A stretch of 64,000 bases of DNA from Escherichia phage vB_VIPECOMC06: sequence record PQ416618.1, one strand, 5' to 3'. The position numbers were made by a program, and so were the translations under genes. Below are positions 1,938-38,169 of this stretch, in pieces. Below the pieces are notes generated by a model, which made no database searches, was not told the DNA's origin, and was given only the letters and a program-made list of their open reading frames with translations. The first letter of the stretch is position 1. Every line of letters starts with the position of its first letter.

Positions 1938-2013
1938 GTGCCCTAGCCTTAGGATTTCTCGGTGCAATAGCTGCACTAGTGATTTGGCTGTATCGGTTGG
2001 ACAAACATGATTA

Positions 2014-2035
2014 GGGAGCTTCGGCTCCCTTTTGT
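2014..2035 (+). terminator. Intrinsic terminator hairpin (UUCG tetraloop) after gene 52
   Basis: GGGAGCTTCGGCTCCC followed by TTTTGTG. Confidence 0.65.
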
Positions 2036-2054
2036 GCATTTTTCTCACAAAACA

Positions 2055-2088
2055 GTTTACATGTGCTTCAAACATGATATTATAGACC
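2055..2088 (+). promoter_or_regulatory. Early (sigma70-type) promoter upstream of motA
   Basis: GTTTAC -35 and GATATTATAGAC extended -10 at T4-early spacing. Confidence 0.65.
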
Positions 2089-19000: not shown

Positions 19001-19007
19001 TAAATTG

Positions 19008-19029
19008 GGAGACTTCGGTCTCCCTTTTG
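19008..19029 (+). terminator. Intrinsic terminator after gene 32
   Basis: GGGAGACTTCGGTCTCCC + TTTT. Confidence 0.7.
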
Positions 19030-19055
19030 AGTATCTGTAAATTGCCGAAAAAGTT

Positions 19056-19088
19056 GTTTACTTTTCCTTTAAACATGATACTATAGAC
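19056..19088 (+). promoter_or_regulatory. Early promoter upstream of ORF 19114
   Basis: GTTTAC … GATACTATAGAC. Confidence 0.65.
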
Positions 19089-32866: not shown

Positions 32867-33115
32867 ATGATTAAACAATTACAACACGCTCTTGAACTGC
32901 AACGCCATGCATGGAATAATGGCCATGACAATTACGGTGCATCTATTGATGTTGAAGCCGAAGCTCTTGAAATCTTACAGTATTTCAAACATCTGAATCC
33001 AGCACAAGCCGATCTTCGCGATATCCTGGTCCAGAAAGATGAATTGAAATATGCTAAGCCTCTGGCTTCTGCAGCACGTAAAGCAGTTCGTCATTTTGTT
33101 ATTACTTTGAAATAA
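32867..33115 (+). CDS. rIII: Lysis inhibition accessory protein RIII
   Basis: 82 aa; MIKQLQHALELQRHAWNNGHDNYG… matches T4 RIII. Confidence 0.9.
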   Translation: MIKQLQHALELQRHAWNNGHDNYGASIDVEAEALEILQYFKHLNPAQADLRDILVQKDELKYAKPLASAARKAVRHFVITLK

Positions 33116-33278
33116 TTACTACCATGCGTCAGCAAAATGTTAGCTGTGTAAGTCATGGTAGGTATGATGACGGGTTTACGGTTATCCTGTCGTTAAATAT
33201 CCAAAACCTATGTTCCCCTTGAGGGCTTGAGCAGGCAATGTCAATAAGTCCTGCATTTTCATTTAAAGAGAATTTATA

Positions 33279-33458
33279 ATGGCAAAACAAGCTAAAGCAA
33301 AGAAAGCAGTCGAAAAGAAAGTTGATGGTACCTCTAAACGCGCTGGATACAAGCGTGGGTCGAACTATCGTATTAATCAAACCGTTGAGAAGATCATGCG
33401 CAGAGCACGTGCAGTTCTTCGAGATGATGCTTCTCGTTTTGGAAAGGTTGTTGCATAA
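33279..33458 (+). CDS. Small basic protein, 59 aa (below ORF-track cutoff)
   Basis: MAKQAKAKKAVEKKVDGTSKRAGYKRGSNYRINQTVEKIMRRARAVLRDDASRFGKVVA; followed directly by a UUCG terminator hairpin; explains locus better than antisense track ORF 33153..33380. Confidence 0.5.
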   Translation: MAKQAKAKKAVEKKVDGTSKRAGYKRGSNYRINQTVEKIMRRARAVLRDDASRFGKVVA

Positions 33459-33463
33459 TTTTA

Positions 33464-33485
33464 GGGAGACTTCGGTCTCCCTTTT
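33464..33485 (+). terminator. Intrinsic terminator after small ORF 33279
   Basis: GGGAGACTTCGGTCTCCC + TTTTGTG. Confidence 0.7.
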
Positions 33486-33518
33486 GTGCGTTTAGGGCAG
33501 AAAAAGTTTAAAAAAGAT

Positions 33519-33551
33519 GTTTACTCTCCTGTAGGATGTGTTACTATAGAC
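33519..33551 (+). promoter_or_regulatory. Early promoter upstream of ORF 33589
   Basis: GTTTAC … GTTACTATAGAC. Confidence 0.65.
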
Positions 33552-33588
33552 TTGTACCACCTAATCAATAAAACAACCGGAGAATAAA

Positions 33589-33960
33589 ATGAACATTATC
33601 AATTTAAATGCTACAATTAAATGCCGTGACCATGATGGATATAAATCTCAAGTTGTTAACGAGTTACAGTGGATGGTTCGTTCAGTTCAAGGTGATGTGG
33701 TTTATTGTACAACTCCTGATGGCCCTTCAGACGATTTTTGTTATCATATCGAAATCGAAAACTTTTTCACTGGTGAAATTTACCGTCTGAATTCTACAGT
33801 TTATGGTTGTATTCGTTCTAAAACTTACGAAGATGAAGAGACTGGTTACTCTGAAGATGTTGTATGGTACGAAAATGCCAGAAATCGCGCAGAGGCATTA
33901 ATCGAGAAGATTAAAGCAAAAGGTGTTATCGATTCAGCTAAGTGGACAAAAATCAAATAA
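33589..33960 (+). CDS. Hypothetical early protein, 123 aa
   Basis: ORF with own early promoter and RBS GGAGAA. Confidence 0.6.
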   Translation: MNIINLNATIKCRDHDGYKSQVVNELQWMVRSVQGDVVYCTTPDGPSDDFCYHIEIENFFTGEIYRLNSTVYGCIRSKTYEDEETGYSEDVVWYENARNRAEALIEKIKAKGVIDSAKWTKIK

Positions 33961-33964
33961 AAAT

Positions 33965-34004
33965 GTTTACTTTGGTACAGGTTTTGTTATTATAGACCTG
34001 TACC
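33965..34004 (+). promoter_or_regulatory. Early promoter with stem-loop (PeSL-like) upstream of ORF 34035
   Basis: GTTTAC; -10 GTTATTATAGAC flanked by inverted repeat GGTACAGG / CCTGTACC. Confidence 0.65.
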
Positions 34005-34034
34005 AACAAACAACTTAAACATCTGGAGAATAAA

Positions 34035-34400
34035 ATGAACTACATCAACTTCGAACGTAAATATGTTTCTAACGGTATTGCTGGTTCTATTGATACGATT
34101 TGCTTATGGAAACATAATAACGGTTCAGTATGTGAAATTGAGCAGTATATGACTCCTAATTACGTTTATATGCGATTTGAAAATGGCATCACGGTTTCAA
34201 TCACGATGGAAGGTTCTACTTTTAAAATCGCTTTAGATGATGATTTCCGTCAACGTGATTTAGGTACCCATCCTTGCTGGAACGGCGTTAATCGTAAGCT
34301 TCTGGTTAAAACCTGGATTCGTCACATCCTGAGCAACCGAGCTAAACCTGAACATCTCGAAGCAATCTTTGATGTAGTTCTGAATGAATTCGATATCTAA
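34035..34400 (+). CDS. Hypothetical early protein, 121 aa
   Basis: ORF with own early promoter; followed by UUCG hairpin. Confidence 0.6.
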   Translation: MNYINFERKYVSNGIAGSIDTICLWKHNNGSVCEIEQYMTPNYVYMRFENGITVSITMEGSTFKIALDDDFRQRDLGTHPCWNGVNRKLLVKTWIRHILSNRAKPEHLEAIFDVVLNEFDI

Positions 34401-34410
34401 TCTTAAAAAT

Positions 34411-34430
34411 GGAGGCTTCGGCCTCCTTTG
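34411..34430 (+). terminator. Hairpin/terminator after ORF 34035
   Basis: GGAGGCTTCGGCCTCC + TTTG. Confidence 0.55.
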
Positions 34431-34441
34431 AGGAAAATATT

Positions 34442-34729
34442 ATGTTTATGACCACTTATTTCGATACTCGTAAAAATTTCTGTGAAGTTGTTTTCTCTAA
34501 AGCTGGTAAAGACGTTCCTGCCGACAAACAACCTACTCGTGAATCTATTAAGGCTTATGCTGATGTTGTATGCCCGGTAGAATTCCGTACTGTTAATGGA
34601 CGTGATACCCTGGCAATCACTAAGCTCAACCGTGACATCAATATCGACCCAAGTGTCGCCCGTGAAGTCAATACCTCTGACATCTATGGTGGTAATGTTA
34701 AATCACACGGCTTTCAGATGAGGTTCTAA
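34442..34729 (+). CDS. Hypothetical protein, about 95 aa
   Basis: ATG at 34442 after GAGGAAAA; track start 34409 would read through the terminator hairpin. Confidence 0.5.
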   Translation: MFMTTYFDTRKNFCEVVFSKAGKDVPADKQPTRESIKAYADVVCPVEFRTVNGRDTLAITKLNRDINIDPSVAREVNTSDIYGGNVKSHGFQMRF

Positions 34730-34923
34730 TGCAACTATTCTTATCACAAACAGTCCAGTTAAAAGGCATAGGTATTCCTGGAATGATTTCAAAGGTTCTA
34801 CCTGCTTTTAAATTAGGTAATGTTACTATTAAAAAAGCCTACGCCGTCTTATGGGTCGATGGAACTGAAGACGTTCGCATGAGTTCTGAATTAGAAGTTA
34901 TCAAAAACCTTAAAAGACTATGA
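34729..34923 (+). CDS. Hypothetical protein, 64 aa
   Basis: ORF with coupled stops and starts. Confidence 0.4.
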   Translation: MQLFLSQTVQLKGIGIPGMISKVLPAFKLGNVTIKKAYAVLWVDGTEDVRMSSELEVIKNLKRL

Positions 34924-35372
34924 TTGAAATCAGAAGCAATTTTCCATGGCCGTCATGTGCATTAAGTAACTTTGCTAAATGGCCTTTTGTTATGGATGGT
35001 ATTCAATTCGGAGGTCTTGAAGGATTTCTCCAAGGATGTAAGGTGAAAAATATTGAACAACAAAAACGTATATTTGGGTTGTCCGGATTGGCTGCACAGC
35101 AAGCTGGAAGGTCTTATGCAAGAGCTCAGGACCGTGGGACTCTCTTCTGGTTAGGAGTTCCATTTTCAAGATACTCCGAAGCGTGGAAAGAATTATACAC
35201 AAATGCATATTTTGAAGCCGCGATCCAAAACAAGGGGTTTCGTGATGCCTTACAAGCCTCTAAAGGAAAAATTTTGAAGCACAGCATGGCTAGCGGTCTA
35301 ACAAAAGATGATACAATACTAACCGAAGCTGAATTTATTGATGTGTTAAACCTATTAAGAGACTCTTTATGA
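34920..35372 (+). CDS. NADAR-family (YbiA/DUF1768-like) protein
   Basis: 150 aa; …LSNFAKWPFVMDGIQFGGLEGFLQGCKV… and C-terminal helical region align in pattern with E. coli YbiA (FSNFAAWPIKVDGKTWPTSEHYFQAQKF…). Confidence 0.6.
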   Translation: MIEIRSNFPWPSCALSNFAKWPFVMDGIQFGGLEGFLQGCKVKNIEQQKRIFGLSGLAAQQAGRSYARAQDRGTLFWLGVPFSRYSEAWKELYTNAYFEAAIQNKGFRDALQASKGKILKHSMASGLTKDDTILTEAEFIDVLNLLRDSL

Positions 35373-36193
35373 AACCTACTATTTTGACCGATATTGATGG
35401 TGTATGTTTAAGCTGGCAATCCGGACTTCCTTATTTTGCCCAAAAATATAATCTTCCATTAGAACATATTTTAAAAATGATTCAGGACGAAAAATTTATT
35501 TCTCCTGGTAAACTATTCAATACCGACGATAACCTTGGTAAACAATTAATAGAAAAATATAATAGCTCTGATTTTATTCGTTACTTAGCGCCTTATTCAG
35601 ATGCTCTTCGAGTTATCAATAAACTAAAAGAAGACTATAATTTTGTAGCCGTGACGGCGCTAGGTGATTCAATTGATGCTCGATTGAATAGACAATTTAA
35701 TTTGAATGCTTTGTTCCCAGGCGCTTTCTCTGAAGTAATGATGTGTGGTCATGATTCTTCAAAGGAACAATTATTCGAACTAGCTAAAACAAAATATAAC
35801 GTGATTTGTTACGTTGACGATTTAGCTCATCACTGTGACCATGCAGCAGAAATTCTTAATGTACCGATTTATTGGTTGGCTCGAGGTGAACGTGATGCCA
35901 TTCCTCGTACTGCACAACGTGTACACACGTGGGATGATATTGAATCTCGTTTGGTTCCACCTGAGCATAAGTCAGGTTCAGATCGTGAAGACCTTTTAAA
36001 ACGATTGGCCGATTTGCTTAAAGAATCTGGTGCAACAAGTCCAGGTGCATGGCCTAATCAAATCGGCGGCCCCTCGACAACACGTACTCCATATACCTGG
36101 CGAACTCCAGGACCAACTGATATGCAGCCGTGGTGGACGATTCAAAACTTTCCTTTAGATTCGTCTAAATGGACTTGGTCTATAAATTGTTAA
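35369..36193 (+). CDS. HAD-superfamily phosphatase-like protein (5'(3')-nucleotidase-like N-terminal domain) with unusual Trp/Pro/Thr-rich C-terminal tail
   Basis: 274 aa; motif I DIDGV near N-terminus, later VDD motif; C-terminal 60 aa compositionally odd. Confidence 0.5.
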   Translation: MKPTILTDIDGVCLSWQSGLPYFAQKYNLPLEHILKMIQDEKFISPGKLFNTDDNLGKQLIEKYNSSDFIRYLAPYSDALRVINKLKEDYNFVAVTALGDSIDARLNRQFNLNALFPGAFSEVMMCGHDSSKEQLFELAKTKYNVICYVDDLAHHCDHAAEILNVPIYWLARGERDAIPRTAQRVHTWDDIESRLVPPEHKSGSDREDLLKRLADLLKESGATSPGAWPNQIGGPSTTRTPYTWRTPGPTDMQPWWTIQNFPLDSSKWTWSINC

Positions 36194-36202
36194 GGGTTAA
36201 TT

Positions 36203-36472
36203 ATGTTTGTAGTTCATGATATTACAGATGGCAAAAACACAACGCGTGACTACGGTCACGTTAACATGTTCTTTCGAGACTGGCCATTGTTTCGTTCAGT
36301 AAAAGACGCAGAAATATTTAAAGAGTGTGTTGAACAAGGGTTCATCTACATTTCAGAATACTATGTTGAAGGACTCGGTAAATGGATTACCACTTATCAG
36401 AAAACGCTGAAATCGCTTCTAGATGAAGTGGCTTATAATAGAACCGTAACCAAAATCGAGGACATCAAATGA
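36203..36472 (+). CDS. Hypothetical protein, 89 aa
   Basis: ORF directly upstream of ligase. Confidence 0.5.
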   Translation: MFVVHDITDGKNTTRDYGHVNMFFRDWPLFRSVKDAEIFKECVEQGFIYISEYYVEGLGKWITTYQKTLKSLLDEVAYNRTVTKIEDIK

Positions 36473-37962
36473 TTTTAGATATTTTAAACCAAATAGCTGC
36501 GATCGGTTCTACTAAAACAAAACAAGAAATCCTTAAGAAAAATAAGGACAACAAATTACTTGAACGTGTGTATCGTTTAACATATGCACGTGGTATCCAG
36601 TATTATATTAAGAAATGGCCGGGGCCAGGTGAAAGGTCTCAAGCATATGGTCTTCTTGAATTAGATGACATGTTGGATTTTATTGAGTTCACATTAGCCA
36701 CTCGTAAACTCACTGGTAATGCTGCAATTAAAGAGCTCATGGGTTATATCGCTGATGGTAAACCTGATGATGTAGAAGTCCTTCGACGTGTAATGATGCG
36801 CGACCTTGAAGTAGGTGCTTCAGTGTCTATCGCGAATAAGGTGTGGCCTGGACTTATTCAATTGCAACCACAGATGTTAGCATCTGCATATGATGAGAAA
36901 TTGATTACTAAAAATATTAAATGGCCTGCATTTGCCCAATTAAAAGCAGATGGTGCTCGTTGTTTCGCTGAAGTTCGCGATGATGGTGTTCAATTCTTTT
37001 CTCGTGCCGGTAACGAATATCACGGTCTTACTCTATTAGCGGATGAACTAATGGAAATGACTAAAGAAGCTCGTGAAAGACACCCTAATGGGGTTTTAAT
37101 CGACGGTGAATTAGTTTATCATTCATTTGATATTAAAAAGGCTGTGAGCTCAGGAAATGACCTGTCGTTCTTATTTGGTGATAATGAAGAATCTGAAGAA
37201 GTACAAGTTGCAGACCGTAGCACTTCAAATGGTTTAGCAAATAAATCTCTTCAAGGGACTATTTCTCCTAAAGAAGCGGAAGGTATGGTTCTTCAAGCCT
37301 GGGACTATGTTCCTTTAGATGAAGTCTATTCTGATGGCAAAATTAAAGGTCAGAAATACGATGTTCGTTTTGCTGCTCTTGAAAATATGGCTGAAGGCTT
37401 TAAGCGAATTGAGCCAATTGAAAATCAGTTAGTTCGTAATCTTGATGAAGCTAAAGTGGTTTATAAAAAATATGTTGACCAAGGTCTTGAAGGTATTATC
37501 CTTAAAAACCGTGATTCATATTGGGAAAACAAACGCTCTAAGAACCTAATTAAATTTAAAGAAGTTATTGATATCGCTTTAGAAGTTGTAGGATACTATG
37601 AACACTCTAAAGACCCTAACAAATTAGGTGGTGTCGAACTCGTATCACGTTGTCGTCGTATTACAACCGATTGTGGTTCAGGGTTTAAAGATACAACTCA
37701 TAAAACAGTTGACGGTGTAAAGGTTCTTATTCCTTTAGACGAGCGTCATGATTTAGACCGTGAACGATTAATGACCGAAGCTCGTGAAGGTAAATTAATT
37801 GGACGTATCGCTGATTGTGAATGTAATGGTTGGGTTCATTCTAAAGGCCGTGAAGGTACTGTAGGTATTTTCCTTCCAATTATTAAAGGGTTCCGTTTTG
37901 ATAAAACAGAAGCGGATTCGTTTGAAGACGTATTTGGACCGTGGTCCCAGACAGGTTTATAA
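36469..37962 (+). CDS. 30: ATP-dependent DNA ligase gp30
   Basis: 497 aa; MILDILNQIAAIGSTKTKQEIL…, adenylation motif KADGAR; matches T4 DNA ligase. Confidence 0.95.
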   Translation: MILDILNQIAAIGSTKTKQEILKKNKDNKLLERVYRLTYARGIQYYIKKWPGPGERSQAYGLLELDDMLDFIEFTLATRKLTGNAAIKELMGYIADGKPDDVEVLRRVMMRDLEVGASVSIANKVWPGLIQLQPQMLASAYDEKLITKNIKWPAFAQLKADGARCFAEVRDDGVQFFSRAGNEYHGLTLLADELMEMTKEARERHPNGVLIDGELVYHSFDIKKAVSSGNDLSFLFGDNEESEEVQVADRSTSNGLANKSLQGTISPKEAEGMVLQAWDYVPLDEVYSDGKIKGQKYDVRFAALENMAEGFKRIEPIENQLVRNLDEAKVVYKKYVDQGLEGIILKNRDSYWENKRSKNLIKFKEVIDIALEVVGYYEHSKDPNKLGGVELVSRCRRITTDCGSGFKDTTHKTVDGVKVLIPLDERHDLDRERLMTEAREGKLIGRIADCECNGWVHSKGREGTVGIFLPIIKGFRFDKTEADSFEDVFGPWSQTGL

Positions 37963-38150
37963 TGAAAGCTTATTTAGAAACAGTTGTTGTAGCTAAGAAG
38001 GATGGTGGAGATGTTTCCACCTCTTGCTCTCAGATTATATTAGATTTTCCTAATGAAAATTCGTATCGGGTTTTCGTAGATAACGTTAATGGGTACGAAA
38101 AAGGCCCCAATTTTGAAGTTTATCGCACTTTGCTCCCGATTGTAGATTAA
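37962..38150 (+). CDS. Hypothetical protein, about 62 aa
   Basis: ATG at 37962 overlapping ligase stop (TAATG); followed by UUCG hairpin. Confidence 0.45.
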   Translation: MKAYLETVVVAKKDGGDVSTSCSQIILDFPNENSYRVFVDNVNGYEKGPNFEVYRTLLPIVD

Positions 38151-38169
38151 GAGCCTTCGGGCTCTTTTT
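38150..38169 (+). terminator. Intrinsic terminator after ORF 37962
   Basis: AGAGCCTTCGGGCTCT + TTTTG. Confidence 0.65.

What the first reader, a model, noticed from the sequence alone, without database searches (positions are those of the whole stretch)
33116..36472. Hypervariable rIII-ligase interval: promoter-driven unknown ORFs plus a NADAR / HAD-phosphatase pair
Between two conserved genes (rIII and ligase 30) lie nine small ORFs, several with their own early promoter and UUCG terminator (33279, 33589, 34035, 34442, 34729), followed by a NADAR-family (YbiA-like) ORF at 34920..35372 and an overlapping HAD-type phosphatase-like ORF at 35369..36193. NADAR proteins are linked in the literature to NAD/ADP-ribose metabolism and to reversal of ADP-ribosylation of guanine in DNA, so this pair is a plausible counter-defence or nucleotide-salvage module. 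The cassette-like promoter-ORF-terminator units resemble the mobile early-gene cassettes described in T4-type phages. Functions of all ORFs here are unverified.
Basis: inference. Interest (0 to 1): 0.55.

Follow-up and report, generated by a model that had tools for sequence, protein, structure and literature searches.

The report
Known T-even AdfN gene block
This stretch is the ordinary rIII-to-ligase block of small early genes of an RB69-like T-even phage; its NADAR gene is an intact copy of the already characterised anti-DarTG1 enzyme AdfN, and the neighbouring HAD gene is a nucleotidase-like phosphatase of unknown role.

Summary
The window comes from an RB69-like (Mosigvirus) T-even phage. 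Positions 33116-36472 hold the conserved genes 30.9, 30.8, 30.7, 30.6, a T4-30.5 homologue, 30.3, 30.2 and 30.1, which is eight genes rather than nine.

The ORF at 34920-35372 is gp30.3, 95% identical to T4 gp30.3. That protein was published in 2024-2025 as AdfN, a NADAR enzyme that removes ADP-ribose from guanine in phage DNA and defeats DarTG1. The copy here is full length and lacks RB69's inactivating T insertion.

The ORF at 35369-36193 (gp30.2) has a HAD fold with all four catalytic motifs. Its closest relatives by profile are 5'(3')-deoxyribonucleotidases.

The idea that the two genes form one functional pair is not supported:
- In published T4 transposon data, insertions in 30.3 are lost on DarTG1 (log2FC -7.25), while insertions in 30.2 are neutral (-0.12).
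- In distant T4-like phages, 30.3 lies far from 30.2.

Promoter and hairpin cassettes (PeSL type) flank only 30.9, 30.8 and 30.7. The remaining genes form a tightly overlapping operon. The block is therefore already known, and the only open question is what gp30.2 acts on.

The parts
32867..33115 (+). rIII, the left conserved flank.
   Evidence: It is 90% identical at protein level to RB69 rIII and 87% to T4 rIII.
33279..33458 (+). Gene 30.9, a 59-aa Lys/Arg-rich protein of unknown function.
   Evidence: It is 98% identical to RB69 gp30.9 and matches phrog_1427 at 1.5e-30. The T4 orthologue is non-essential.
33463..33482 (+). UUCG-loop hairpin AGGGAGAC-UUCG-GUCUCCCU followed by UUUUG. It is terminator-like and forms the stem-loop half of a PeSL element.
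   Evidence: The hairpin was found and folds at -14.1 kcal/mol, z = -3.9. The same composite element occurs at 2013 and 19007.
33519..33547 (+). T4-type early promoter GTTTAC-N17-TACTAT upstream of 30.8. It forms the promoter half of the PeSL element.
   Evidence: The window has 4 matches against 0.22 expected. The aligned copies are shown.
33589..33960 (+). Gene 30.8 (Pfam Phage_30_8), the most allele-variable gene of the block.
   Evidence: It matches PF06019 at 2.4e-73. It is 98% identical to RB69 but only 38% to T4 and about 57% to other phages. There is no nucleotide match to T4 across 33447-33897.
33965..33993 (+). T4-type early promoter GTTTAC-N17-TATTAT upstream of 30.7. Its -10 box lies inside a palindrome.
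   Evidence: The promoter match is. The palindrome folds at -18.3 kcal/mol, z = -4.3.
34035..34400 (+). Gene 30.7 (Pfam Phage_T4_Gp30_7), function unknown.
   Evidence: It matches PF06919 at 1.8e-52 and is 97% identical to T4.
34411..34426 (+). UUCG-loop hairpin GGAGGC-UUCG-GCCUCC between 30.7 and 30.6. Its short U tract runs straight into the 30.6 ribosome-binding site (GAGG).
   Evidence: (-14.8 kcal/mol, z = -3.0).
34442..34729 (+). Gene 30.6, the first gene of the overlapping operon. RB69's annotation corresponds to a start at 34448.
   Evidence: It matches phrog_2153 at 8e-49 and is 80-100% identical to relatives. GAGG lies 8 nt upstream of the 34442 start.
34729..34923 (+). Homologue of T4 gene 30.5. 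T4 and RB69 gene 30.4 is absent here, and RB69 carries 30.4 in place of 30.5.
   Evidence: tblastn gives 62.5% identity to T4 gp30.5 and no hit to T4 or RB69 gp30.4. The nucleotide alignment to RB69 breaks at 34731-34925.
34920..35372 (+). adfN (gene 30.3), a full-length NADAR DNA ADP-ribosylglycohydrolase of 150 aa. The key residues are E34, K41 and H121.
   Evidence: It matches PF08010 at 5e-68 and is 95% identical to T4 gp30.3. It lacks the RB69 T insertion. A family profile hits YbiA at 6e-4, and the three top fold matches are all NADARs. Function is taken from PMC11825919 and PMC11125620 and from the transposon data.
35369..36193 (+). Gene 30.2, a HAD-superfamily phosphatase. The core is roughly residues 1-200 with a C1 helical cap, followed by one more confidently modelled helix at 203-219. 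The motif residues are D8, D10, T96, K132, D150 and D151. A disordered Trp/Pro-rich C-terminal tail begins at about residue 227.
36203..36472 (+). Gene 30.1 (DUF3045), function unknown.
   Evidence: It matches PF11243 at 1.4e-26 and is 98% identical to RB69.
36469..37962 (+). Gene 30, the ATP-dependent DNA ligase and right conserved flank.
   Evidence: It matches PF01068 at 1.9e-26 and is 99% identical to RB69.

Best explanation
The interval is the standard '30.x' early-gene block of a T-even phage.

The first three small genes (30.9, 30.8, 30.7) sit between repeated hairpin-plus-early-promoter elements (PeSLs). These elements drive early transcription, and because they are repeated they also allow cassettes to be exchanged between phages.

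The remaining genes (30.6, the 30.5 homologue, adfN/30.3, 30.2, 30.1 and the ligase) overlap stop-to-start and are read as one operon.

AdfN is a NADAR N-glycohydrolase. It uses Glu34, Lys41 and the phage-specific His121 to cleave ADP-ribose from the N2 of guanine that the host toxin DarT1 places on phage DNA. That removes the replication block and lets the phage grow on DarTG1 hosts. This mechanism was shown for the 95%-identical T4 protein and is inferred for this allele. This allele is full length, unlike the frameshifted one in RB69.

gp30.2 is a separate Mg-dependent HAD phosphatase in which Asp8 is the nucleophile and Asp10 the acid/base. It has a helical cap, and its nearest relatives are 5'(3')-deoxyribonucleotidases. 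It most likely dephosphorylates a nucleoside monophosphate or another small phosphorylated molecule; this is an inference. It is not required for the anti-DarTG1 function.
For: Identity of the region: megablast and annotation, and synteny.

AdfN:
- It matches Pfam Phage_30_3 at 5e-68.
- It is 95% identical to T4 gp30.3, with E36/K43 conserved as E34/K41.
- It lacks RB69's T insertion.
- A family profile hits YbiA across the catalytic segment at E = 6e-4.
- The AF2 model (pLDDT 82) has only NADARs (2b3w, 8bau, 8bat) as its top fold matches.
- His121 lies in the last strand, which matches the phage NADAR subtype described in PMC11125620.
- Function comes from PMC11825919.
- In T4 transposon data on DarTG1, 30.3 has log2FC -7.25, q = 0.

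gp30.2:
- The AF2 model has pLDDT 84.
- D8, D10, K132, D150 and D151 are invariant and T96 is nearly invariant in 40 homologues, and each sits at the canonical strand end.
- A broad family profile hits the putative 5'(3')-deoxyribonucleotidase 3bwv at 5e-5 and Sdt1-type nucleotidases at 1e-4.
- Family member P0200 passes the Pfam NT5C threshold.

Operon and PeSL anatomy. Insertions in T4 30.4, upstream of adfN, are also depleted on DarTG1 (log2FC -1.79, q = 0.014), which fits co-expression with adfN.
Against: - No experiment has been done on this particular allele. Its N-terminus is two residues shorter than in T4 and RB69, because the 30.4 slot is missing and the junction falls at the start codon.
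- AdfN from T4 worked fully only during T-even infection, and the reason is unknown (PMC11825919).
- The window's gp30.2 itself scores below the Pfam thresholds: HAD_2 gives 16 bits against a cut-off of 23.8.
- Fold searches do not discriminate between HAD subfamilies, so the substrate remains a guess.
- The promoter and terminator calls rest on consensus matches only.
Confidence: 0.82

Rival explanations
1. AdfN and gp30.2 work together as one counter-defence module. For example, gp30.2 could be the unidentified T-even factor that potentiates AdfN, or it could process the released ADP-ribose.
For: The two genes overlap by ATGA. They are adjacent in all E. coli T-even loci and in the Acinetobacter-type loci L017-L019. 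Both are about equally widespread in phage records, 1510 and 1441. PMC11825919 proposes an unknown T-even-specific helper for AdfN.
Against: T4 insertions in 30.2 are neutral on DarTG1 (log2FC -0.12, p = 0.61), while insertions in 30.3 are lost. The 30.3 homologue has no 30.2 within the DNA held (up to about 6 kb each side, less on short contigs) in 7 of 25 loci, and it is separated from 30.2 by inserted ORFs in L022. In Aeromonas phage 60AhydR15PP the two genes lie about 104 kb apart. NADAR hydrolysis leaves no phosphate for a phosphatase to remove (mechanism in PMC11543638).
Confidence: 0.07
2. gp30.2 is a DNA-end 3'-phosphatase that prepares nicks for the adjacent DNA ligase, like the HAD domain of T4 polynucleotide kinase/phosphatase.
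Against: gp30.2 carries an all-helical cap of about 80 residues between motifs I and II. By established HAD classification, such caps go with small-molecule substrates, and enzymes that act on polymers have little or no cap. The profile matches favour nucleotidases. T4-like genomes are collinear, so adjacency to the ligase carries little weight. T4 30.2 is dispensable while the ligase is essential.
Confidence: 0.1
3. The NADAR protein serves NAD or riboflavin-intermediate metabolism, as E. coli YbiA does, rather than DNA de-ADP-ribosylation.
For: YbiA is the best sequence and fold match.
Against: T4 gp30.3 removes ADP-ribose from guanine in DNA in vitro. It is necessary and sufficient for T-even growth on DarTG1 (PMC11825919 and PMC11125620; transposon data). 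The window protein is 95% identical to it.
Confidence: 0.03

Closest known systems
AdfN (anti-DarT factor NADAR; T4 gp30.3; Pfam PF08010 Phage_30_3)
   Same: The window protein is 95% identical to it and occupies the same position between the 30.4/30.5 slot and 30.2. It has the same catalytic Glu, Lys and phage-specific His, and it keeps the complete C-terminal helix that the T4 protein needs for full activity.
   Different: The N-terminus is two residues shorter. The gene directly follows a 30.5 homologue because 30.4 is absent. It sits in an RB69-like genome, whereas the reference RB69 strain carries a frameshifted, inactive allele.
DarG1 / BC4488-type NADAR antitoxins and E. coli YbiA
   Same: They share the NADAR fold and the conserved Glu and Lys of the active site.
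   Different: The window protein lacks the N-terminal extension of DarT1-linked NADARs. Its third catalytic residue is His rather than Asp (DarG1 type) or Glu (YbiA type). It is not encoded next to a DarT toxin.
HAD-superfamily 5'(3')-deoxyribonucleotidases (Pfam NT5C; PDB 3bwv, 2jao, 2i7d, 4mum)
   Same: gp30.2 has the Rossmann-like HAD core with a DxDGV motif I, a Thr, a Lys and a DD motif IV, plus a helical C1 cap. An aromatic residue (W16) aligns with the Phe eight residues after the nucleophile in the nucleotidases; a base-stacking role for that Phe is recalled from the literature and was not checked here.
   Different: Identity is only 16-19%. The window protein does not reach the Pfam NT5C or HAD thresholds. 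It carries an extra disordered Trp/Pro-rich tail starting at about residue 227. Its substrate is unknown.
PeSL elements (promoter-early stem-loop cassettes of T4-type phages; Arbiol 2010, Comeau 2014)
   Same: A GC-rich hairpin is followed about 35 nt later by a T4 early promoter. The composite is repeated in near-identical copies at 2013, 19007 and 33463. It lies at the left edge of the swapped 30.8 allele.
   Different: Only one complete PeSL lies inside the interval. The second promoter has no upstream hairpin, and its -10 box sits inside a palindrome. The 30.5/30.4 swap has no PeSL at its edges.

Membership tests
NADAR superfamily, phage gp30.3/AdfN subtype | The protein has the NADAR (YbiA-like) fold. 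| tested here: met
   The AF2 model has pLDDT 82. The only fold matches with probability of at least 0.9 are YbiA 2b3w, PnNADAR 8bau and GlNADAR 8bat.
NADAR superfamily, phage gp30.3/AdfN subtype | The catalytic Glu and Lys are conserved (E88/K95 in E. coli C7 NADAR; E36/K43 in T4 AdfN). | tested here: met
   E34 and K41 align with T4 E36 and K43 and with the YbiA segment. Across 10 family members E34 is invariant and K41 is nearly invariant, present in at least 90%.
NADAR superfamily, phage gp30.3/AdfN subtype | The third charged catalytic residue, in the last strand, is His in phage NADARs. | tested here: met
   H121 is invariant and lies in the last predicted strand, residues 119-121. The criterion is taken from PMC11125620.
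NADAR superfamily, phage gp30.3/AdfN subtype | The C-terminal helix is intact; it is lost in the inactive RB69 allele. | tested here: met
   The protein is 150 aa and ends ...EAEFIDVLNLLRDSL as in T4. The RB69 T insertion is absent.
NADAR superfamily, phage gp30.3/AdfN subtype | The protein removes ADP-ribose from guanine in DNA and rescues growth on DarTG1. | not testable with these tools
   This has been shown only for the T4 orthologue (PMC11825919, PMC11125620; T4 transposon data).
HAD (haloacid dehalogenase-like) phosphatase superfamily | The protein has the Rossmann-like HAD core fold. | tested here: met
HAD (haloacid dehalogenase-like) phosphatase superfamily | Motifs I-IV are present: DxD, then Thr/Ser, then Lys, then DD. 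| tested here: met
   D8, D10 and G11 are invariant, T96 is nearly invariant, and K132, D150 and D151 are invariant in 40 homologues. D8, T96 and D150 sit at the ends of strands 1, 2 and 4, and K132 sits just before the helix that precedes strand 4.
HAD (haloacid dehalogenase-like) phosphatase superfamily | The protein reaches the Pfam gathering score for a HAD family. | tested here: not met
   HAD_2 scores 16.0 bits against a cut-off of 23.8. Family members give only sub-threshold hits to Hydrolase, HAD_2 and NT5C.
NT5C-type 5'(3')-deoxyribonucleotidases | There is significant sequence similarity to NT5C or to solved deoxyribonucleotidases. | tested here: inconclusive
NT5C-type 5'(3')-deoxyribonucleotidases | The protein dephosphorylates dNMPs. 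| not testable with these tools
   No biochemical data for gp30.2 were found in the paper library.
PeSL regulatory cassette | A stem-loop lies immediately upstream of a T4-type early promoter, and the composite is repeated in the genome. | tested here: met
   The hairpin at 33463-33482 and the promoter at 33519-33547 form the composite. It aligns with copies at 2013/2055 and 19007/19056. The published consensus is quoted.
PeSL regulatory cassette | The element lies at the borders of gene replacements between related phages. | tested here: inconclusive
   The segment with no nucleotide similarity to T4 (33447-33897) starts at the PeSL and ends 67 nt before the next promoter. The 30.5/30.4 swap has no PeSL at its borders.

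The most novel reading that the evidence does not exclude
gp30.2 could be a phage nucleotidase with an immune-evasion or nucleotide-pool role that nobody has yet described. It belongs to a family with more than 1,000 sequence clusters and is conserved next to the ligase gene across T4-like phages. One possibility is that it destroys a nucleotide monophosphate that host defences sense or use as a signal precursor. Its variable C-terminal tail might dock it to a phage or host partner.
Probability: 0.12. Interest if true: 0.6.

Novelty: already known. Interest (0 to 1): 0.22.

Why it matters
The practical result is an annotation. This RB69-like phage carries an intact adfN, so it should resist DarTG1 where the RB69 type strain does not. 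That bears on host-range prediction and on the choice of phages for therapy.

The analysis also separates AdfN from its neighbour. gp30.2 is a well-conserved, nucleotidase-like HAD enzyme for which published T4 data show no phenotype in LB, in minimal medium, or against DarTG1. It remains an open but ordinary piece of T-even 'dark matter'.

Tried and rejected
- Single-sequence searches of gp30.3 against PDB sequences found nothing; a family profile was needed.
- NCBIfam gave no useful hits for any of the eight proteins. PHROGs returned only 'unknown function' families.
- The generic sigma-70 and terminator scan was no better than shuffled sequence: 19 promoter-like sites against 16.5 expected, and 3 terminator-like sites against 3.6. 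I used the T4-specific promoter pattern and a UUCG-hairpin search instead.
- A paper search on the gene numbers returned only unrelated papers, and 'gp30.2' returned none.
- I checked whether the NARP3 NAD-salvage paper and the PUA-Cal-HAD defence paper involve gp30.2. Neither does.
- I considered recent horizontal transfer of adfN between T4-like and RB69-like lineages, because the protein is 95% identical to T4 while the ligase is only 64% identical. I did not adopt it: nucleotide identity is only about 84%, which fits purifying selection equally well.


Full report
**What the region is**

The window is from an RB69-like T-even phage. Positions 33000-36600 match 760 phage records by megablast. 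The best matches are 96-97% identical Escherichia Mosigvirus-type phages, and RB69 itself matches at 94%. The RB69 and T4 annotations place the interval between rIII and gene 30, the DNA ligase.

tblastn of each window ORF against RB69, T4 and 25 related loci gives the gene list:

| Gene | Coordinates |
|---|---|
| 30.9 | 33279-33458 |
| 30.8 | 33589-33960 |
| 30.7 | 34035-34400 |
| 30.6 | 34442-34729 |
| T4 30.5 homologue | 34729-34923 |
| 30.3 | 34920-35372 |
| 30.2 | 35369-36193 |
| 30.1 | 36203-36472 |

That makes eight conserved genes, not nine.
- The two short intergenic ORFs have no phage family.
- T4's internal ORF 30.3' is interrupted by a stop codon here.
- Pfam recognises 30.8, 30.7, 30.3 and 30.1 as their own phage families.

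**The NADAR call**

The 34920 ORF matches Pfam Phage_30_3 at 5e-68.
- A profile built from ten family members hits E. coli YbiA (PDB 2b3w) at E = 6e-4, across the segment that holds the catalytic Glu and Lys.
- An AlphaFold model (pLDDT 82) finds only NADAR structures as credible fold matches: YbiA, the Phytophthora NADAR and the Geobacter DarG1-type NADAR.

The literature has already settled the function of this gene.
- T4 gp30.3 hydrolyses ADP-ribose from guanine in DNA in vitro (PMC11125620).
- It was named AdfN after it was shown to be necessary and sufficient for T-even growth on DarTG1 hosts (PMC11825919).
- A T4 transposon screen confirms this. Insertions in 30.3 drop from a mean of 261 to 0.7 reads on DarTG1, log2FC -7.25.

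The window protein is 95% identical to T4 AdfN.
- It keeps E34 and K41 (T4 E36 and K43) and the His of the last strand that marks the phage NADAR subtype.
- RB69's allele carries a T insertion that removes the last helix and inactivates the protein. The window lacks that insertion and encodes the full 150 residues.
- The expected phenotype is therefore DarTG1 resistance. This is an inference for this allele.

**The HAD call**

The 35369 ORF scores below Pfam thresholds on its own: HAD_2 gives 16 bits against a cut-off of 23.8. The fold evidence is nevertheless clear.
- The model has pLDDT 84, with values above 90 over most of the core, roughly residues 1-190.
- The top 50 Foldseek matches are all HAD proteins.

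Across 40 homologues down to 37% identity, D8, D10, G11, K132, D150 and D151 are invariant and T96 is nearly invariant. D8, T96 and D150 sit at the ends of strands 1, 2 and 4, and K132 sits just before the helix that precedes strand 4, which are the canonical positions of HAD motifs I-IV. An all-helical insertion of about 80 residues between motifs I and II forms a C1 cap.

On the question of subfamily, the evidence points to nucleotidases but is not decisive.
- The only sequence hint for the single protein is mouse 5'(3')-deoxyribonucleotidase at E = 0.11, with W16 aligned to the enzyme's Phe eight residues after the nucleophile.
- An exhaustive profile search found 1,117 clusters in the family.
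- One member passes the Pfam NT5C threshold.
- A 63-sequence family profile hits the putative deoxyribonucleotidase 3bwv at 5e-5, Sdt1-type pyrimidine nucleotidases at 1e-4, and the mitochondrial and cytosolic dNT enzymes at 0.02-0.1.

I therefore read gp30.2 as a nucleotidase-like HAD phosphatase whose substrate is unproven. From about residue 227 the chain becomes a disordered, Trp/Pro-rich tail. It diverges from T4 soon after the catalytic core, from about residue 200, and is absent from many homologues.

**Whether the two genes are a pair**

They overlap by ATGA. They are adjacent in all E. coli T-even loci and in three Acinetobacter-type loci. Three lines of evidence argue against a functional pair.
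- In 7 of 25 loci the 30.3 homologue has no 30.2 in the flanking DNA held (up to about 6 kb on each side), and its neighbours there are unrelated genes.
- In one locus (L022), a ~170-aa ORF that I read by eye as a homing-endonuclease-like protein and two small ORFs separate them.
- In Aeromonas phage 60AhydR15PP the two genes are about 104 kb apart.

gp30.2 instead stays beside the ligase gene. The published T4 transposon data are the strongest evidence.
- On DarTG1, 30.2 insertions are neutral (271.5 to 249.8, log2FC -0.12, p = 0.61) in the same experiment in which 30.3 insertions vanish.
- 30.2 is also neutral in minimal medium and non-essential on K-12.

The module idea is therefore not supported. 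The adjacency most likely reflects conserved T-even gene order.

**Regulatory anatomy**

A T4-type early promoter pattern (GTTTAC N17 TANNAT) occurs four times in the window against 0.22 expected. Two of the four lie here, upstream of 30.8 and of 30.7.

UUCG-loop hairpins with stems of at least 5 bp occur nine times on the + strand, against 0.23 in shuffled sequence.
- Two of them follow 30.9 and 30.7.
- A third, AT-rich one lies inside the 3' end of the 30.2 coding sequence (36154-36169) and looks like chance.

The hairpin at 33463 and the promoter at 33519 form a composite that recurs nearly identically at 2013/2055 and at 19007/19056. This composite matches the published PeSL elements (PMC2839356 and PMC4122927).

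From 30.6 onwards there are no such signals, and the genes overlap stop-to-start. In T4, insertions in 30.4 just upstream of adfN are also depleted on DarTG1 (log2FC -1.79, q = 0.014), which fits co-expression of the operon.

**Variability**

The block is mosaic rather than hypervariable.
- gp30.8 is 98% identical to RB69, 38% to T4 and about 57% to other phages, while the flanking gp30.9 and gp30.7 stay at 90-97%. The segment with no nucleotide similarity to T4 (33447-33897) begins at the PeSL.
- The slot before adfN differs between phages. T4 has both 30.5 and 30.4, RB69 has only 30.4, and this window has only 30.5.
- Some loci lack 30.8 and 30.7 or carry extra DNA.
- The protein databases hold many truncated or fused 30.3 products.

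**Verdict**

However, the main element, the NADAR gene, is the already characterised AdfN, and the proposed NADAR/HAD partnership is contradicted by existing data. The one open item is the substrate and role of gp30.2.

Noticed in passing
window 2013-2083 and 19007-19084: Two further copies of the same hairpin-plus-early-promoter composite (GGGAG(A)C-UUCG-G(U)CUCCC, an A-rich spacer, then GTTTAC N17 TAYTAT AGAC) occur elsewhere in the window. These dispersed repeats could mediate cassette exchange.
   Followed up: partly
window 36047-36190 (gp30.2 residues 227-274): The C-terminal tail of gp30.2 is predicted to be disordered, is rich in Trp and Pro, and is encoded by locally GC-rich DNA (0.44-0.47 against about 0.36). 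It diverges from T4 soon after the HAD core. Many homologues end in a conserved ...IEYLxxQPT-like motif that the window and RB69 lack, and other homologues have no tail at all.
   Followed up: partly
window 35050-35274: The frame that corresponds to T4's annotated internal gene 30.3' is interrupted by a stop codon here. This suggests that 30.3' is not a conserved protein-coding ORF.
   Followed up: partly
window 33117 (rIII-30.9 spacer): The rIII-30.9 intergenic spacer is about 100 nt shorter than in RB69 (163 nt against 263 nt). No clear early-promoter match was found upstream of 30.9.
   Followed up: no
L026:6004-6447 and L022:6441-7454: In one distant locus (L026) the 30.3 homologue appears to be broken by an in-frame stop, and the ORFs downstream look like homing endonucleases by eye (not tested with any profile search). 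In another locus (L022), a ~170-aa ORF that also looks endonuclease-like by eye and two small ORFs sit between 30.3 and 30.2.
   Followed up: no
protein clusters P0103-P0122: Many database versions of gp30.3 are truncated (83-126 aa) or fused to fragments of 30.7, 30.8 or other families. adfN is therefore often damaged or rearranged in natural and laboratory phages, not only in RB69.
   Followed up: no
window 38149-38166: Another UUCG hairpin (AAGAGCC-UUCG-GGCUCUU followed by UUUUG) lies after the small ORF that follows the ligase gene and just before the alt gene.
   Followed up: no
GenBank records OR352942, OR352943, MK524178, OR525701: Several deposited genomes label a gene under this interval as '1,4-alpha-glucan branching enzyme, GH-13-type'. 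No ORF in the interval supports that name, so it looks like an automatic mis-annotation.
   Followed up: no
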